Shown: one piece after another, positions 36,481-49,755 of the stretch
How the letters are laid out: each line of letters begins with the position of its first letter
Position numbering within the stretch: the first letter of the stretch is position 1
IMG/VR virus record: IMGVR_UViG_3300042527_000115
Location: 1-62,090 of that record
Direction: 5' to 3' (one strand)
From: a virus
Lineage: Duplodnaviria > Caudoviricetes
DNA length: 62,090 bases
Made by a program: the position numbers and the translations under genes
Notes under the pieces: generated by a model
The model's input: only the letters and a program-made list of their open reading frames with translations
Database searches by the model: none
What the model was told of the DNA's origin: nothing

Positions 36481-36679
36481 ACGGACATCCATTAATCGAA
36501 TGGAGAAAGATTAAGCAGTGGGTCAGGGCAGCTTGGGCAGAGTCTTTTGGAATAGTTGTGGCGTTTGTGTTGGGAATCTTGCTTGGAATTGTTTACAAAC
36601 AGGAGGACATCATGGAAGACTGCAAGTACTCCGGGACGTTCCGGGTTCACAGCCAAGCTTATAACTGCCAGAGGAAGAT

Positions 36680-36967
36680 ATGAGAAAGCTACTGATTGCG
36701 TTATTAATGGCCCCGTCTATGGCGATGAGTCAAGTATTCGTGGTGCCAAATAAAGGTGGCGGAGAGATCACGATTACTACTCGGCCATGTATTGTCAAGG
36801 GCCAGAATCACTCCGAGCTTAGGGAGGCATACACCTGGTCACCGTCATCTCCATACGAGAAGGGGTGCTGGACGATCATTGATGGGATGGTTCACATCCT
36901 GTTCCTAGACACCAACAGTCGTCGTGTTTACCCGATTGAAGAGTTTCAAAAGAAAGAAACGCGATGA
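36680..36967 (+). CDS. Secreted hypothetical protein
   Basis: Signal-peptide-like N-terminus; NKGGGEITIT...GCW. Confidence 0.6.
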   Translation: MRKLLIALLMAPSMAMSQVFVVPNKGGGEITITTRPCIVKGQNHSELREAYTWSPSSPYEKGCWTIIDGMVHILFLDTNSRRVYPIEEFQKKETR

Positions 36968-45237: not shown

Positions 45238-45521
45238 GAGATCTTTTAGACAGAGTCGAGCGGTTAGGTTGGCAAATGGAGCAGTTCCGTCAGCTACGGG
45301 GCGCCTGCTCATGTGGAGATTCCACAATCCTGGGCGTGATCCATTCGGACACCAAGCCGTGCAGTCTGCCGACCGTTCACTTGCCTTTGACAGATCATCA
45401 GATCCAGGACATCGGGGTGAACTACGCAGACCTGGGTGGGGACATTGGGTGCAAGAACTGGGAACAATTTGCAAGGGCCATAGAAAAGGCTCATGGGATC
45501 GGGGGGATCAATGAGGTTTGA
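45234..45521 (+). CDS. Hypothetical phage protein
   Basis: PLTD..I...FARAIEKAHGI module. Confidence 0.55.
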   Translation: MRDLLDRVERLGWQMEQFRQLRGACSCGDSTILGVIHSDTKPCSLPTVHLPLTDHQIQDIGVNYADLGGDIGCKNWEQFARAIEKAHGIGGINEV

Positions 45522-46341
45522 AGACTTTGCCCGCAGCCACGGGCTGATTATCAACGGCGTCATTCCAGGCAAATGGATCGCCACGCCAACCGAAGATCAC
45601 CCAAGGAAAAGGAACGGACGCTATAAGTACATGGGAGACCATGGCTGGGTTCAGAACTGGGCAACCATGCAGAAGGCTGTGCTGTGGAAATCTGACCGTC
45701 CACAAAGGCTCTCACCGTCTATCTATCAAGCCGTGCGTAACTCTGACAAAGAGCGGGAAGACATGGCCAAGAAAGCCGCGGCTCGGGCTGGCTGGATCTT
45801 GCATAACTCATTTAACGCCCCGCATCCATACATGGACAAGAAGGGATTCCCGGAGGAGCCGACCAAGGTTTGGACAGATGACGACGGCAAGCGCCTGTTA
45901 GTTGTGCCGATGCGGATCAACAACGTGCTGGTTGGCGCTCAACTCATCGATGAAGAGGGGGGTAAGAAGTTCCTGAAGGGACAGCGTTCCAAAGGCGCAT
46001 CCTTCACCATGGACGCAAAAGGACTGCCGATCTTCTGCGAGGGGTACGCCACGGGCCTCAGTATCAGAGCCGTAATGAAGCTCGTAAATATCCGCTATCA
46101 GATCCATGTGTGCTTTAGCGCAGGAAACATACAGGAGATATCTCGGAGCATCCCCGGCGGGATAATCGTCGCTGACAACGATGCAAGCGGAACGGGAGAA
46201 AAGGCCGCGCTTGAAACAGGCAAGCCTTACTGGATCTCCCCCACAACTGGGGAGGATTTCAACGATTTTCATCAGCGCGTTGGTGACTTCAAAGCCAGCC
46301 AATCCCTTAAATCATTAATCATTAAAGCTCAGTCTCAGTAG
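45511..46341 (+). CDS. TOPRIM-domain primase
   Basis: CEGYATG, FSAGN, IVADND, DFND. Confidence 0.85.
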   Translation: MRFEDFARSHGLIINGVIPGKWIATPTEDHPRKRNGRYKYMGDHGWVQNWATMQKAVLWKSDRPQRLSPSIYQAVRNSDKEREDMAKKAAARAGWILHNSFNAPHPYMDKKGFPEEPTKVWTDDDGKRLLVVPMRINNVLVGAQLIDEEGGKKFLKGQRSKGASFTMDAKGLPIFCEGYATGLSIRAVMKLVNIRYQIHVCFSAGNIQEISRSIPGGIIVADNDASGTGEKAALETGKPYWISPTTGEDFNDFHQRVGDFKASQSLKSLIIKAQSQ

Positions 46342-46590
46342 CCTGATGAACTTAGCTTCCATCTGACGGACCCTTTCCTTGGACAGGCCGTAAAGATTGC
46401 CTGCCTCGGAGAGGGTGCCGCCTTCTGCCCGCTTCTTCAAGATAGCCCAATACTTTTCCCGATTGTCTGGTGCCACCTTCTTAAGCAGCTTATCGAAGTC
46501 TTCCCGCGAGGGAAAGTCCACCAGTCTATACGGCATATTGGGATCACCCGTTTGAATCGGGACTCGCCCGCCTGCATCTTTCAAATTCAC
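46315..46590 (-). CDS. Sigma70 region-4-like HTH protein
   Basis: TLSEAGNLYGLSKERVRQME; AAGGAG RBS right after the last array anchor. Confidence 0.7.
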   Translation of the reverse strand: MNLKDAGGRVPIQTGDPNMPYRLVDFPSREDFDKLLKKVAPDNREKYWAILKKRAEGGTLSEAGNLYGLSKERVRQMEAKFIRLLRLSFND

Positions 46591-46610
46591 TTTGTTACTC
46601 CTTTATCCTT

Positions 46611-47329
46611 AACTGCCTTACCTCACCGAACCGAACCAAACTCTAAATCACCGTGCCTTGACTGCCTTGCCGCACCATTCCGCGCGTAGCCACGCCCCGC
46701 GTAACCAGTCGACACCACGACTGCCATACCGCATCAGACCTCGCCTCGCCTCTGGCTCCGGACCATAGCTGCCTAACCGATCCCGACCAAATCAGACCGT
46801 TGCACACCGCTTCGCAACTAGCCAAGCCCAGCCGCACACAGCCTAGACTGCCCAACCACACCATTCCTTGCCCCACCTTGTCATACCGCGCCGGATCGCA
46901 CACCACCCAGCCTGAACTGCCTTACCAAACCCAACCTGACTAGTCCCAGCCTGATTACGCAAAACTACGCCCTGCCGAACTGCACCTAGACTGCCCAACC
47001 AAACCACTCACTACCGCGCCATGCGCTAGATGTCCCGACCTATCCACGACTGCCAGACCATATCTCGCTGGACCCAACCAAATAACTCGCTACGCAACCA
47101 TGACTGCCATGCTCCACCAAATCTCGCCTGACCTGTCGCTGTGTAACCTCGACAGACCTAGACTGCCTAACCCCACCTTACACCACCTATCGCCGCCGGT
47201 CCTCAACTCTCCATGGCTGCCAAATCTTTCCGCTTGCTACCGTGTCTAAACTATCCAAGCGCCACCAAGACTGCCCTGCCCAACCCAACTCTACGAGACC
47301 AGTCCTAACATATCCAATCCCCGACTGCC
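46611..47329 (-). repeat. 12-unit pentamer-periodic array (GGCAG-YY-[NN-GGH]n), candidate guide-RNA array
   Basis: 13 CTGCC anchors on + at 46613, 46662, 46721, 46769, 46848, 46917, 46991, 47050, 47104, 47163, 47217, 47271, 47325; spacings 49,59,48,79,69,74,59,54,59,54,54,54. Confidence 0.9.
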
Positions 47330-47334
47330 GTGCG

Positions 47335-47352
47335 GGGGGACCGAAGTCCCCC
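47335..47352 (-). promoter_or_regulatory. cUUCGg tetraloop hairpin at the 5' end of the array
   Basis: GGGGGAC-TTCG-GTCCCCC on - strand; no U-tract follows. Confidence 0.8.
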
Positions 47353-47358
47353 ACCAAG

Positions 47359-47838
47359 TTACATCTTTACCGCTTCTTTTACTCGACCTAAGTCTTCTAA
47401 AAGATCATCGATCTGGCCGTTCATACCAAGAGCTTCAGCGTGTAGCTTGGCTCTTTGCAAGTGTGATTCAGCCCGAGCAAACTCCATGACGATCGACTCC
47501 CTTGCTAAATCAGAACTGGTCTTGAGTTTATCGATCGATACGTAGCCCTGCTCCATCGAAGCAGCCTCCGGGTCTCGCACGTAGTAAACCGTGGAAATCT
47601 TTCGGTTTTCCGTAGTGATCACCACCCGAACCGAGGTGATGATCTGACGGGCTTGGAACAGTCGATGCTGATGTGCAGCTAGTCCATCATCCCACTCAAA
47701 CAAACCATGCAGGATCGAATTAGGATCTTTCGCTGCATCTAACACTAGGTCAGGAGTGAGCCGACCGCCGTTTAGATCAGCAATCTCTGCAAGCTTTTCA
47801 GCAACTAATTCTCTGTCTTTGATGATTGCGGTACTCAT
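47359..47838 (-). CDS. Conserved accessory protein coupled to the RAMP-like gene
   Basis: LTP..V.DAA.DP.S.LH..FEWDD..AA...RL.QAR motif; ATGA overlap with the upstream gene. Confidence 0.75.
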   Translation of the reverse strand: MSTAIIKDRELVAEKLAEIADLNGGRLTPDLVLDAAKDPNSILHGLFEWDDGLAAHQHRLFQARQIITSVRVVITTENRKISTVYYVRDPEAASMEQGYVSIDKLKTSSDLARESIVMEFARAESHLQRAKLHAEALGMNGQIDDLLEDLGRVKEAVKM

Positions 47839-48608
47839 GCTGCCACCTTAAATCCGCGGCGCTTGGTCTCAGCCTCAAACCATGACAACAACTCTTCGGT
47901 CTCGGCATCGAAACACTCAGGCTCGGCCATAGCTTTGACTTGCGCCTTGCGTCCCATGGTCTTGATGATCCGCTGGAAATCTTTGTCGTCCTCACTCACC
48001 AACTTGAAGCAACCATAGTTTCCGGAACCTTTCTCCTGACGCCAATCACCCACACCAGACACCATCCCGCCAGAGGCCAACAGGTTAGCGACCGATTGCT
48101 CTTTGAGCAGAGGCTTTGTGAACTCAATCGTCAGACGGCAGGCCCACTCAGGCATGACTGCCCGGGTGCGAACGTCCGGTGTGCGATTGATATCGGCCGA
48201 TCGGGTAGTGGCCATGAGAACCTGGGGGATACCGTAGATCTCGATCGCCTGACCTTCGACATAGATATGCTTCTTGATCTGTGTACGGGCTACTCCGGGC
48301 ATATCGAGTGCCGCGGTCATCATCGTTCCCTTAAATGCGCTGGGCAGCAGGGAGATCAGAGTATTAGCATCTTCCTCCTTGATGATGTAAGGCGAATCGC
48401 GGAACTCTTGCAGCGGATTGTGCTTCAGGCTGATCGCCTTCTCAGCTGCGTTCTTCTTGCCCTTTGGGAATAGCAACTCTTGCAGGGCTTTTTGGCTCAT
48501 GCGATTGTGGATCAGCGGGGTGGTTCCCAAGACGCAGAACTCCATTTTGCCGCGGGTTTGCTCATAAATAACGATCTCACCTGTAGAGGTGGTTGAAGCT
48601 TTTGCCAT
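47835..48608 (-). CDS. Stand-alone Cas7/RAMP-like RNA-binding protein
   Basis: N-terminal strand + GTTPLIHN, LPSAFKG (cf. RAMP IPGSSLKG), RTRA...W, C-terminal Gly-rich loop GVGDWRQEKGSGNYGCF. Confidence 0.75.
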   Translation of the reverse strand: MAKASTTSTGEIVIYEQTRGKMEFCVLGTTPLIHNRMSQKALQELLFPKGKKNAAEKAISLKHNPLQEFRDSPYIIKEEDANTLISLLPSAFKGTMMTAALDMPGVARTQIKKHIYVEGQAIEIYGIPQVLMATTRSADINRTPDVRTRAVMPEWACRLTIEFTKPLLKEQSVANLLASGGMVSGVGDWRQEKGSGNYGCFKLVSEDDKDFQRIIKTMGRKAQVKAMAEPECFDAETEELLSWFEAETKRRGFKVAA

Positions 48609-48630
48609 GATTTTCTCCTTGATTTAGGCA

Positions 48631-48671
48631 GGTCAACATTGACCACATAGCCCGCTCATCGAACGGGCTAT
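48631..48671 (-). promoter_or_regulatory. Leader hairpin and palindrome upstream of the RAMP-like gene
   Basis: ATAGCCCGTTC-GAT-GAGCGGGCTAT (11 bp, one G-U on - strand); GGTCAA-TG-TTGACC. Confidence 0.5.
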
Positions 48672-48684
48672 AGGGAAATGCTGG

Positions 48685-49755
48685 CTAAACGTGTCCGCTC
48701 TTTGATTCCAAGAAAGAACTCACCGCGTCATAGATGCGGCTTAATTCGTCCTCGTTGATCTCCATAGAATCCAAGACCACCCCGTACATATCCCGGTTCT
48801 CAAGTGCCATTTGCGCAATGGTCAGCGCAATGATCATGTCCGGGCCGGTGAGCAGGGTGCGCACTATAGCCATCCCGCGTATTTCTTAAATGCTTTTTTG
48901 TATTCCGCATAGGTCTTAAACCCCTGCGGCTTACGCATCACGCAGTACAGGGCAAAGTCTTCTGACATGAAATGCCCCTGCGCCAACTCATCGTGCGACT
49001 TTCCGACCTGATCGTAGGTCTCACCGTTGTAGTGGGCTTTGAGAACAAACTTAAGCTTTTCCCACAGATCATGGTCATATCCATCAGGGCAGATGTCCTG
49101 CCCATCGACGCGCCCATATCCATCGTAGACGCCCTCGAGCTTTCGGCCATCCGGATACAGGACCACGATGTCGAATAGCTGCGGATACTTCCTATGCCAA
49201 TCGTTCCCGTAGCCATGATGGATCACGGGGTGGTGTGATTTCGCGCAAGTCTTTGAAAAGAATCCCATGCTTTCTCTCCTTAAAGTGTGGGAAATACTTC
49301 GTCTTGATCCATGAACAGGGCGCCTCCGTTGTTGCCCTCATCATCAGCTGAAGCAAACATATAGCTGCCGTTATCGAACACAATCACCAGCGGGCGCTTC
49401 GACCAATACATCTCATCCGCTTCGTCTTTGGTCATGTATCTGACCTCTTTGATGCGCCGGCCGACAAGCTTTTTTTCTGCAATCTGCGTGGCCCGACCTT
49501 CGATAATCAACTCGTTTGATTTCACGGGAAGATCCACGCTGATCGTGGGGGTGAGGGTAACTTTCATGCTGCCTCCCTGATGCGGGATAGCGTTCCGCAG
49601 ACAAGGCAGCACCCGTCTTCATGCGGTGTGCGGTCTTCGCATGGCAAGCAATCGCGCCATGAATCACAGGTTAGAGTGCCGTCCTCAACCGCTTTGTAGA
49701 CGGCAGACTGACCACCTTTTTCGTAGATCTGAACCGCCTTTTCGTAATTAGACAT
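48685..49755 (-). other. Early-region hypothetical ORFs (48685-48873, 48864-49268, 49280-49567, 49564-49755)
   Basis: Closely packed - strand ORFs with RBSs; GVYDGYGRV and DDEGNNGGALF motifs. Confidence 0.6.

What the first reader, a model, noticed from the sequence alone, without database searches (positions are those of the whole stretch)
46611..47329. Strict grammar of the array: 5n+4 units and a triplet position that is never G
Seen (hand parse, - strand): each unit is GGCAG-YY-NN-(triplet-NN)n with n = 9,9,9,10,9,10,13,12,14,8,10,8. Example, unit 8: GGCAG TT CA GGC TG GGT GG TGT GC GAT CC GGC GC GGT AT GAC AA GGT GG GGC AA GGA AT GGT GT GGT TG. Of 121 triplet slots, 77 are GGH, and none of the 120 complete triplets ends in G. 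The first triplet after every anchor is GGH and YY is always pyrimidine (TC in 9 of 13). Eleven of 12 spacings are 5n+4; one unit (48 nt, near 46751) is 1 nt short. NN positions vary freely. Inference: register is under selection while NN carries information, and the out-of-phase GGCAG-YY anchor is a processing site or filament boundary yielding ~49-79-nt RNAs.
Basis: seen in the sequence. Interest (0 to 1): 0.9.

Follow-up and report, generated by a model that had tools for sequence, protein, structure and literature searches.

The report
Phage VIPR guide-RNA array
This G-rich stretch is a lake phage's array of about a dozen VIPR guide RNAs, a CRISPR-like system first described in 2026 preprints that phages use to silence rival phages, so it is real and functional-looking but belongs to a kind already described.

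Summary
There are 13 GGCAG anchors, and 11 of 12 spacings are 5n+4. G occurs at pentamer position 3 in 0 of 135 cases. The period-5 signal lies far outside shuffled controls.

The element is a VIPR (Viral Interference Programmable Repeat) locus, as described in bioRxiv 10.64898/2026.04.26.720920. The gene two upstream (47835-48608, - strand) is a Vipr/Cas7-like RAMP. It matches the solved SUSP1 Vipr and keeps its R...D-W-R RNA-reading residues. The next gene (47359-47838) is a conserved accessory partner.

The array is the tail-less "staggered" type. Each unit is a run of G-N-Y-N-N pentamers that shares one G with the next unit at GGCA|G, which gives 5n+4.

- The same gene pair occurs in 138 of 146 related loci, and an array in 135 of 141.
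- GGCAG spacings in those arrays are ≡4 mod 5 in 447 of 712 cases.
- Whole units are swapped exactly at the anchors between 99%-identical phages.
- Read by the published 1-nt-skip rule, unit 3 matches at least 120 viral contigs perfectly, all in the IE[DE]PGYGKGY motif of Sak4-like AAA_24 genes. The backwards control gives 0.

RNA ends were not testable. This is a new member of a known kind.

The parts
47835..48608 (-). vipr: 257-aa Cas7-like RAMP protein that should polymerise on the vrRNA pentamers
   Evidence: A profile of 17 homologues hits PDB 36pp_D 'SUSP1 Vipr protein' at E 8.5e-10. hhalign against SUSP1 Vipr gives probability 97.5%, E 6e-12, over 54 columns. The AF2 model (pLDDT 83) hits Csm3/Cas7 RAMPs in Foldseek at E 7e-6, probability 1.00. 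The G-loop GVGDWR and the thumb Arg align with SUSP1 R138, D177, W178 and R179. Those are the residues that read G1, G2 and Y3 according to bioRxiv 10.64898/2026.04.26.720927, section 5.
47359..47838 (-). vap-like accessory gene (159 aa, phrog_15946, function unknown)
   Evidence: It lies next to the vipr homologue in 138 of 146 loci, and 296 homologues were found. There is no Pfam hit and no PDB sequence or fold hit. BFVD and the Atlas give only uncharacterised viral proteins. It shows no similarity to SUSP1 Vap1 (hhalign probability 0.2%).
47335..47352 (-). GC-rich hairpin with a UUCG loop between the vap stop codon and the first anchor
   Evidence: Read from the sequence. A contig of run X19 carries a different GC stem with the same loop directly before anchor 3. 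That rests on a single contig at depth 2.5.
46613..47329 (-). staggered vrRNA array of 12 units. Units v1-v12 run (high to low coordinate) 47325-47271, 47271-47217, 47217-47163, 47163-47104, 47104-47050, 47050-46991, 46991-46917, 46917-46848, 46848-46769, 46769-46721, 46721-46662 and 46662-46613, each sharing its last G with the next.
   Evidence: Searches give the grammar and the controls. One search shows cassette exchange at the junctions. One search shows the same grammar in related loci.
47163..47217 (-). vrRNA unit 3, whose NN dinucleotides match the IE[DE]PGYGKGY motif of Sak4-like AAA_24 genes of other phages
   Evidence: All 120 lie in coding sense with the skipped base at the wobble position. 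The targets are PF13479 / phrog_124. The window's own genome has no PF13479.
46751..46759 (-). second, decayed 4-nt phase step inside the 48-nt unit (GGAGC-CAGA)
   Evidence: Read from the parse. In related arrays, spacings ≡3 mod 5 (two steps between perfect anchors) make up 75 of 712.
48607..48636 (-). sigma-70-like promoter match just upstream of vipr (weak)
   Evidence: It is the only promoter-like match in 46000-48800, and shuffles give 1.9 on average, so it is not significant on its own.
46315..46590 (-). 91-aa Sigma70_r4-like HTH gene whose ribosome-binding site follows the last anchor directly; membership in the system is uncertain
   Evidence: PF04545 at E 2.4e-6. It is found only in the near-identical copies, 3 of 146 loci.

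Best explanation
The array is the guide-RNA array of a VIPR (Viral Interference Programmable Repeat) system carried by a complete 62-kb phage from lake water.

Inferred from gene order and strand: the vipr gene, the accessory gene and the array are transcribed together on the - strand.

Taken from the solved SUSP1 structures and from conservation of the contact residues here: Vipr, a Cas7-like RAMP, binds one protomer per pentamer. It buries each G-G-Y triplet, with a pocket that excludes a purine at position 3. That fits G being absent there, although A fills 21 of 135 position-3 slots here. The two following bases (NN) are left exposed.

Taken from the literature, with one natural example found here: the exposed NN pair with double-stranded DNA while skipping every third target base, and binding silences transcription of rival mobile elements.

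Inferred: in this clade the units have no 3' tail and no ribozyme. They abut with a one-base overlap, GGC-A-G|YC, so the pentamer register slips by -1 at each junction, which gives the 5n+4 rule. I infer that this slip ends one Vipr filament and starts the next, and so defines 50-80-nt guides. The final AG of each unit is a constant handle and is not read.

Shown here by sequence matching: unit 3 is aimed at the conserved IE[DE]PGYGKGY motif of Sak4-like recombination genes, which this phage itself lacks.
For: The protein is a Vipr:
- The profile hits solved SUSP1 Vipr at E 8.5e-10, and hhalign gives 97.5% probability.
- The model has a Cas7/Csm3 fold, Foldseek E 7e-6, probability 1.00.
- Window R149, D188, W189 and R190 align with SUSP1 R138, D177, W178 and R179 (their roles are described).

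The locus architecture matches. The order vipr, accessory gene, array on one strand is the same as in SUSP1. The pair is conserved in 138 of 146 loci.

The array grammar matches GGY/NN:
- Positions 1-2 are G in 106 and 105 of 135 pentamers.
- Position 3 is never G and is 84% pyrimidine.
- Positions 4-5 carry about 1.95 bits of entropy.

There is no stable RNA fold (z = -0.77 against 20 shuffles), as expected for a protein-bound single strand.

The same grammar sits next to the gene pair in 135 of 141 loci from Actinomycetota, Pseudomonadota, Bacillota, Planctomycetota and others. GGCAG spacing is ≡4 mod 5 in 447 of 712 cases.

Units behave as cassettes. Unit 3 and units 9-11 are replaced exactly at the junctions in phages with 99%-identical flanks.

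The guide function is supported:
- Unit 3 read with a 1-nt skip gives at least 120 perfect 20/20 matches, and the backwards control gives 0.
- All 120 are in frame in PF13479 / phrog_124 genes.
- The targets are 76 distinct DNA sites in proteins sharing a median 38% identity.
- There is no self-target above shuffles, and the phage has no AAA_24 gene.
- The terminal AG is matched in 0 of 120 targets.
- A second example from the clade: a guide of L138 matches L130 at 20 of 20, in an ORF beside its vipr.
Against: No RNA evidence exists for this phage, so transcription, unit ends and Vipr binding are all inferred.

Only 1 of 5 window guides that I searched gave a convincing target. v11, v6 and the first 11 NN of v8 gave 0 exact matches in IMG/VR. 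The 48 metagenome matches of v12 look like chance. Exact-match searching is insensitive, and 7 guides were never searched in public collections.

About 37% of internal triplets are not GGH (42 of 113), so some units may be decayed.

Position 3 is A in 21 of 135 pentamers, whereas the SUSP1 pocket is said to exclude purines.

Similarity to SUSP1 Vipr is confined to about 55 C-terminal residues.

The accessory protein has no detectable relation to SUSP1 Vap1.

The v3 site was not found in 401 sampled bacterial genomes of one class, nor in 5 genomes that hold VIPR prophages.
Confidence: 0.92

Rival explanations
1. It is a protein-titration or regulatory RNA platform like the TRAP-binding trp leader. 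A ring or filament protein would bind the triplets and the NN would have no meaning. The array would act as a 5' UTR switch or a sponge.
For: Triplet plus 2-nt spacer repeats with 9-15 repeats per unit resemble TRAP sites; that description is my recollection, not a call. The array sits directly before the ribosome-binding site of the next gene. In L003 and L004 it sits before the accessory gene. The RNA is not more structured than shuffles.
Against: The neighbouring conserved protein is a Cas7-like RAMP with the Vipr G-loop, not a TRAP-like protein. The NN of unit 3 match a foreign gene at 20 of 20 in at least 120 contigs, against 0 for the control, which meaningless spacers would not do. Units are exchanged as cassettes.
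Confidence: 0.03
2. It is a DNA-level element: a replication origin, primase or initiator iterons, a G-quadruplex tract or a packaging signal. This was suggested by the nearby helicase and primase genes.
For: Helicase and primase genes end within 300 bp of the array. GG runs every 5 nt could form two-tetrad quadruplexes (inference).
Against: In every related locus the G-rich strand is the coding strand of the gene pair, which points to a transcript. L007 keeps the grammar with GTC/GTT triplets that cannot form G-quartets. The helicase and primase are not conserved neighbours, occurring in 4 and 3 of 146 loci.
Confidence: 0.02
3. It is a VIPR-type array that acts as a decoy or anti-VIPR weapon: guides aimed at redirecting or disabling another element's Vipr rather than serving the phage's own Vipr.
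For: bioRxiv 10.64898/2026.10.15.759431 reports solo vrRNAs on satellites that redirect the helper phage's VIPR (passages read).
Against: This array lies beside an intact vipr and accessory gene on the same strand. The one target found is a recombination gene, not a vipr or a vrRNA.
Confidence: 0.02
4. It is a decaying pentanucleotide microsatellite with no function.
For: Tandem Repeats Finder sees no repeat family, and 42 of 113 internal triplets are degenerate.
Against: Position 3 is never G in 135 pentamers, while positions 4-5 are free. The grammar is conserved with the gene pair across phyla. There is a perfect gapped match to a foreign conserved motif.
Confidence: 0.01

Closest known systems
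VIPR 'staggered' vrRNA arrays (bioRxiv 10.64898/2026.04.26.720920, main text and the legend of fig. S18; I read Results, Methods sections 20, 26 and 27, and the legends)
   Same: A Vipr RAMP gene plus an accessory gene in a phage, with GGY/NN pentamers. Adjacent vrRNAs derive from positions that overlap by 1 nt, so the end of one marks the start of the next. That is exactly the 5n+4 rule here.
   Different: I could not see the figure or the data tables because supplements are closed. So I cannot say whether this clade, its GGCAG junction or its accessory protein is among the 667 systems classified there. The preprint states that the ribozyme and single-vrRNA architectures were confirmed by small-RNA sequencing, not the staggered one.
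Type II VIPR of Escherichia phage SUSP1 (KT454805; PDB 36pp)
   Same: Gene order vipr, accessory gene, array on one strand. The Vipr C-terminal region with the GVGDWR G-loop and the thumb Arg is conserved. Pentamers follow GGY/NN. The skip base lies at the codon wobble position of targets.
   Different: SUSP1 vrRNAs are separate units, each followed by a tail of about 40 nt with a pseudoknot and a T-run. Here 12 units abut with no tail. SUSP1 Vap1 and this accessory protein are unrelated. tblastn with the window's Vipr does not reach SUSP1. SUSP1 targets a satellite, whereas the one target found here is a Sak4-like gene of many phages.
CRISPR arrays with Cas7 backbone filaments (types I, III, VII)
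   Same: A RAMP protein polymerises on a guide RNA and flips out bases at a fixed period. The fold matches Csm3/Cas7.
   Different: The period is 5 rather than 6. The invariant and guide bases are interleaved within each repeat rather than laid out as repeat-spacer-repeat. No cas genes or CRISPR repeats are present.
TRAP-binding sites of Bacillus trp leader RNAs (recalled, not from a call)
   Same: Runs of conserved triplets separated by 2-nt spacers on an unstructured RNA, bound by an oligomeric protein.
   Different: There the spacers carry no information and the protein is an 11-mer ring of a different fold. Here the spacers are the message and the protein is a RAMP.

Membership tests
VIPR system | A Vipr protein (minimal RAMP: RRM core, G-loop, thumb) encoded at the locus | tested here: met
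   Profile versus PDB 36pp_D at E 8.5e-10. hhalign versus SUSP1 Vipr at 97.5% probability. Foldseek hits to Csm3/Cas7 at probability 1.00.
VIPR system | Residues that read G1, G2 and Y3 (SUSP1 R138, D177, W178, R179) | tested here: met
   They align with window R149, D188, W189 and R190. R149 and R190 are invariant in 17 homologues. H17 of SUSP1 lies outside the aligned stretch and was not assessed.
VIPR system | At least four tandem YNNGG (GGY/NN) repeats in flanking intergenic DNA (the preprint's search criterion) | tested here: met
   135 pentamers in 11 in-phase units. GG at positions 1-2 in about 78%. Position 3 is pyrimidine in 114 of 135, A in 21 and G in 0.
VIPR system | NN hypervariable while the triplet is conserved | tested here: met
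   Entropy is 1.94 and 1.95 bits at positions 4-5, against 1.09, 1.07 and 1.46 at positions 1-3. Units differ between 99%-identical phages.
VIPR system | A conserved accessory (vap) gene beside vipr | tested here: inconclusive
   A conserved partner is present in 138 of 146 loci. It is unrelated to Vap1. Whether it equals one of vap2-6 cannot be checked because supplements are closed.
VIPR system | Natural DNA targets that match the NN under the 1-nt-skip rule, with no self-target | tested here: met
   Unit 3 has at least 120 perfect matches, against 0 for the backwards control. No self hit rises above shuffles. It was met for 1 of the 5 guides searched; 3 gave nothing and 1 gave chance-like hits.
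VIPR system | vrRNAs are expressed and co-purify with Vipr | not testable with these tools
   No RNA run holds the sequence.
VIPR type II architecture (SUSP1-like) | Each repeat tract is followed by a conserved tail of about 40 nt with a pseudoknot | tested here: not met
   Units abut directly. Only GGCAG plus two pyrimidines is shared between units. Compare the SUSP1 array.
VIPR hammerhead-interspersed arrays | Hammerhead ribozymes between vrRNAs | tested here: not met
   An Rfam scan at E up to 10 found no ribozyme in 45800-48200.
VIPR staggered arrays | Adjacent vrRNAs overlap by 1 nt | tested here: met
   With a shared G, 11 of 12 units are whole multiples of 5 nt. Related loci show spacing ≡4 mod 5 in 447 of 712 cases. 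That RNA ends lie there is not shown.
CRISPR array | Near-identical direct repeats of 20 nt or more separated by unique spacers, with cas genes | tested here: not met
   No tandem or direct repeat family, no CRISPR family in Rfam, and no cas genes other than the RAMP-like vipr.

The most novel reading that the evidence does not exclude
In this widespread clade the one-base register slip GGCA|G is itself the unit delimiter. That would be a way to make a dozen guides from one transcript with no tail, ribozyme or Cas6-like nuclease: the slip breaks the Vipr filament, and the constant terminal AG is never read. In addition, guides are aimed at protein-level conserved motifs, so one guide reaches many unrelated rivals. 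Unit 3 covers 76 distinct DNA versions of IE[DE]PGYGKGY in Sak4-like proteins that share a median of only 38% identity.
Probability: 0.45. Interest if true: 0.6.

Novelty: new member of a known kind. Interest (0 to 1): 0.5.

Why it matters
VIPR was described only in 2026 preprints, and its experiments rest on the E. coli phage SUSP1 and a Pseudomonas prophage.

This locus shows the tail-less, staggered architecture in a complete environmental phage with 12 units. That architecture was reported there but not confirmed by RNA sequencing.

The same junction and gene pair occur in at least 135 loci across several phyla. Cultured Mycobacterium smegmatis and Gordonia phages carry them too, and there the genes are still annotated as hypothetical.

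It also gives a natural target for this clade: a conserved motif of Sak4-like recombination genes that the phage itself lacks. The published idea is that skipping the wobble base defeats synonymous escape. Here one guide fits 76 different DNA sequences.

For annotation, ORFs called over such arrays are probably spurious. Examples are window 46643-46906 and 'gene 40' of Gordonia phage UmaThurman.

Tried and rejected
My first working idea was a TRAP-like triplet-binding platform or a replication or primase element. I dropped it once the neighbouring protein proved to be a Vipr RAMP and unit 3 matched a foreign gene.

Tools that found nothing at the array:
- Tandem Repeats Finder found no repeat there; its one low-scoring row lies outside it, at 46310-46325.
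- Rfam at E up to 10 gave only two chance-level hits outside the array.
- blastn against 50,697 phage records found no match.
- The RNA fold is no more stable than shuffles (z -0.77).
- The promoter and terminator scans were no better than shuffles.

Accessory protein: no Pfam family, no PDB fold or sequence match, only uncharacterised viral proteins in BFVD and unnamed viral clusters in the Atlas, and no relation to SUSP1 Vap1.

Guide searches:
- v11, v6 and the first 11 NN of v8 gave 0 exact matches in IMG/VR.
- v12 gave 48 metagenome matches with unrelated flanks and frames, which I read as chance for 18 specified bases.
- Guides v1, v2, v4, v5, v7, v9 and v10 were scanned only against my local loci, with nothing above shuffles.
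- No other fetched VIPR array carries a v3-like guide (best 15 of 20, against a shuffle maximum of 16).
- The v3 site is not found in 5 genomes that hold VIPR prophages (up to 2 mismatches allowed).
- It is also not found in 401 sampled genomes of the class of G001.

RNA evidence: no RNA holder is listed. Read laying returned DNA contigs only, with one low-depth contig variant joining at an anchor.

Supplementary figures and tables of the preprints could not be opened. They may already list this clade, its type and its accessory gene.

Rows left out of counts:
- One search used 141 loci (L003-L007, L017-L152). It left out L001, L002, L008, L015 and L016 (near-identical copies) and L009-L014 (pieces of the window).
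- One search drew its guides from L003-L007, L016-L152, L273 and L274, and 89 loci yielded guides.
- Its search database left out L001, L002, L008-L015 and L275 onward.
Full report
**What is there.** The window is a whole IMG/VR virus record of 62,090 bp that CheckV rates complete. From about 53.1 kb down to 46.3 kb a block of small genes runs on the - strand. Its last members are a 257-aa gene (47835-48608), a 159-aa gene (47359-47838), a 770-nt gap that holds the finding, and a 91-aa Sigma70_r4-like gene (46315-46590). The gap is 42% G on the - strand.

**The observation.**
- There are 13 GGCAG anchors, with spacings 54, 54, 54, 59, 54, 59, 74, 69, 79, 48, 59, 49.
- Two pyrimidines follow every anchor (TC in 9 of 13).
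- A GGH triplet comes first in every unit.
- In the 11 in-phase units, pentamer position 3 is never G (0 of 135).
- Positions 1 and 2 are G in 106 and 105 of 135, and positions 4-5 are nearly random.

The period-5 signal is not a by-product of G-richness. Lag-5 autocorrelation is 0.30, against a maximum of 0.11 in 1000 dinucleotide-preserving shuffles. No phase of 2000 shuffled sets had fewer than 40 G, where the real array has 0.

A simpler statement of the grammar is GGCA followed by in-phase G-N-H-N-N pentamers. If neighbouring units share the last G of GGCAG, 11 of 12 units are whole multiples of five. The 48-nt unit holds a second, decayed 4-nt step (GGAGC-CAGA), so it is better read as two short units than as one unit missing a base.

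**How I found what it is.** Rfam, Tandem Repeats Finder and blastn against phage records gave nothing at the array, and the RNA is no more structured than shuffles. Searching for relatives of the 159-aa protein brought loci with only 27-43% identity. Every one of them had a G-rich period-5 tract with GGCAG on the same strand beside the gene.

With an alignment as query I collected 138 more loci from viral contigs and from bacterial genomes of many phyla. The 257-aa gene is next to the 159-aa gene in 138 of 146 loci. An array by my thresholds is present on the gene strand in 135 of 141.

A profile of the 257-aa family hit one solved structure, 36pp 'SUSP1 Vipr protein', at E 8.5e-10. That led to three 2026 preprints on VIPR systems.

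**What the literature says.** I read the Results, the Methods sections 20, 26 and 27, and the figure legends of bioRxiv 10.64898/2026.04.26.720920. I read section 5 of 10.64898/2026.04.26.720927 and passages of 10.64898/2026.10.15.759431. Their account is as follows.
- VIPR loci hold a vipr gene (a minimal RAMP related to Cas5/6/7), an accessory vap gene and vrRNAs made of 9-16 GGY/NN pentamers.
- One Vipr protomer binds each pentamer in a helical filament. The GGY bases are buried, with a pocket that excludes purines at Y.
- The NN pair with double-stranded DNA while one target base in three is skipped.
- Binding silences transcription of rival phages and satellites.
- Seven types are defined. 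Besides SUSP1-like units with a tail of about 40 nt, there are hammerhead-interspersed arrays, single vrRNAs and 'staggered arrays with overlapping vrRNAs'.
- In staggered arrays, per the legend of fig. S18, vrRNAs derive from positions overlapping by 1 nt. The staggered type was not among those confirmed by small-RNA sequencing.

**Membership tests.**
- The window's 257-aa protein models confidently (pLDDT 83). It matches Csm3/Cas7 backbones at Foldseek probability 1.00.
- Its GVGDWR loop and a thumb arginine align with SUSP1 D177, W178, R179 and R138, the residues that hold G1, G2 and Y3.
- hhalign against the SUSP1 protein gives 97.5% probability.
- Gene order and strand are as in SUSP1.

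The array differs from SUSP1's, where each unit has its own upstream region, tail and T-run. Here the units abut with no tail, and no ribozyme is detectable. That fits the staggered architecture.

The 159-aa partner is conserved but has no named family or fold match. It is unrelated to SUSP1 Vap1. Whether it is one of the published vap2-6 I cannot tell, because the supplements are closed.

**The junction.** Across the 141 related loci, GGCAG-to-GGCAG spacings fall at 4 mod 5 in 447 of 712 cases. They fall at 0 in 157 (in-phase copies), at 3 in 75 (one decayed junction in between), and at 1 or 2 in only 33. Other GGNNN pentamers split almost evenly between 0 and 4 (1398 and 1597 of 4346).

Most relatives read GGCAG-GC where this phage reads GGCAG-TC.

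Two phages whose flanking proteins are 99% identical to the window's carry a different unit in place of unit 3. They carry two different units in place of units 9-11. The breakpoints lie exactly at the junctions, and the other units are almost unchanged. A low-depth contig from another water sample starts its array at anchor 3, after a different hairpin. Units therefore behave as exchangeable cassettes bounded by GGCA|G.

**Do the NN carry a message?** I turned each unit into the published query (NN, one wildcard, NN, and so on). Nothing in the phage's own genome or in the VIPR loci scored above shuffled-order guides. This agrees with the absence of self-targeting reported in the preprint.

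The same pattern read backwards gave 0.
- All 120 sites lie in coding sense in the motif IEDPGYGKGY (73) or IEEPGYGKGY (47), with the skipped base at the wobble position.
- The genes are AAA_24 / Sak4-like single-strand annealing proteins (PF13479 at E 1e-35 to 1e-58; phrog_124).
- The 117 longer target proteins share a median of 38% identity (range 22% to at least 71%).
- The sites comprise 76 distinct DNA sequences, so one guide spans a very diverse set of phages.
- The window's phage has no AAA_24 gene.
- The position that would pair with the constant terminal AG is never AG (0 of 120). I therefore read the last pentamer as a handle and not as guide.

The results against are these. Three other guides gave no exact match. 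One gave 48 metagenome matches that look like chance. Seven were not searched in public collections. The v3 site is absent from 401 sampled bacterial genomes of one class.

As a check on the clade, I scanned 327 guides parsed from 89 other loci against 3.8 Mb of fetched phage DNA. Three had hits at 90% NN or better, against one for shuffled guides. One of the three was a perfect 20 of 20 match: a guide from prophage locus L138 against an ORF just upstream of vipr in L130.

**Mechanism, with its status.**
- Shown here: the grammar, its conservation with a Vipr-like RAMP and a partner gene, cassette behaviour at the junctions, and a natural gapped target.
- Taken from the SUSP1 work: one protomer per pentamer, buried GGY, exposed NN, the 1-nt-skip pairing with double-stranded DNA, and transcriptional silencing.
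- Inferred: co-transcription with vipr and the accessory gene, production of separate 50-80-nt RNAs, and the idea that the -1 register slip (only one base between the triplets GGC and GYC) stops one filament and starts the next. Exposed RNA would then be trimmed by host nucleases.
- Unknown: the role of the 159-aa protein, whether units rich in degenerate triplets still work, and why A is tolerated at position 3 (21 of 135) if the pocket excludes purines.

**Novelty.** The kind is in print, in preprints from April to October 2026, including the staggered layout. The finding is therefore a new member of a known kind. In full-text searches, only those three preprints treat vrRNAs. A fourth 2026 preprint uses the word once, and the other papers that hold the term appear unrelated by title. 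None of the three VIPR preprints mentions Sak4, GGCAG or Cheoctovirus together with vrRNA. The supplements, which I could not open, may still cover them.

What this analysis adds:
- The junction consensus and its statistics across 141 loci.
- Cassette exchange between near-identical phages.
- A natural target for this clade.
- Cultured carriers (Mycobacterium phages such as Saal, and Gordonia phages such as UmaThurman) whose genes are still annotated as hypothetical.

Noticed in passing
L273 (Mycobacterium phage Saal, NC_023580) locus 924-1173 = record 36573-36822: The 250-bp gap upstream of gene 51 (the vipr homologue) is a clean GGCNN array with GGCAGGC junctions. Genes 51 and 52 (vipr-like and accessory-like) are annotated as hypothetical. 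27 Mycobacterium and 5 Gordonia phage records carry the pair.
   Followed up: partly
L274 (Gordonia phage UmaThurman, NC_031249) locus 1617-1940: The annotated CDS 'gene 40' lies over the strongest period-5 G tract, between the vipr-like gene 39 and the accessory-like gene 41. It is probably a vrRNA array called as an ORF. The window's ORFs 46643-46906, 46843-47007 and 47187-47357 are likewise artefacts of the array.
   Followed up: partly
L007 4535-5300: A distant relative keeps the GGCAG junction and the 5-nt register, but its triplets are GTC/GTT/GAT rather than GGY. This fits the preprint's remark on alternative YNNNG-type repeats.
   Followed up: no
L138 about 3498 and L130 2259-2288: A guide in one alphaproteobacterial VIPR prophage matches a related prophage at 20 of 20 NN, in an ORF (MHWNDFEEAV...) immediately upstream of that prophage's vipr. 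The skip base falls at the wobble position.
   Followed up: partly
window 47330-47352 (- strand): A GGGGGAC-UUCG-GUCCCCC hairpin and the bases CGCAC precede the first anchor. A contig of run X19 has a different GC stem with the same loop and GCAC directly before anchor 3. This suggests a conserved structured lead-in to the array (a 5' end, a stabiliser or an attenuator).
   Followed up: no
window 46315-46341: The 3' ends of the convergent primase gene (45493-46341, +) and the Sigma70_r4-like gene (46315-46590, -) overlap by 27 bp. No terminator-like site lies there.
   Followed up: no
L032, L071, L124, L132, L133: Some loci have two to five separate period-5 tracts, on both sides of the gene pair, as SUSP1 has one vrRNA upstream and three downstream.
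   Followed up: no
L126, L127 (contigs binned as Methanosarcinales MAGs): Partial homologues of the accessory protein, with period-5 tracts, occur on contigs assigned to archaeal bins. They may be archaeal viruses or binning errors.
   Followed up: no
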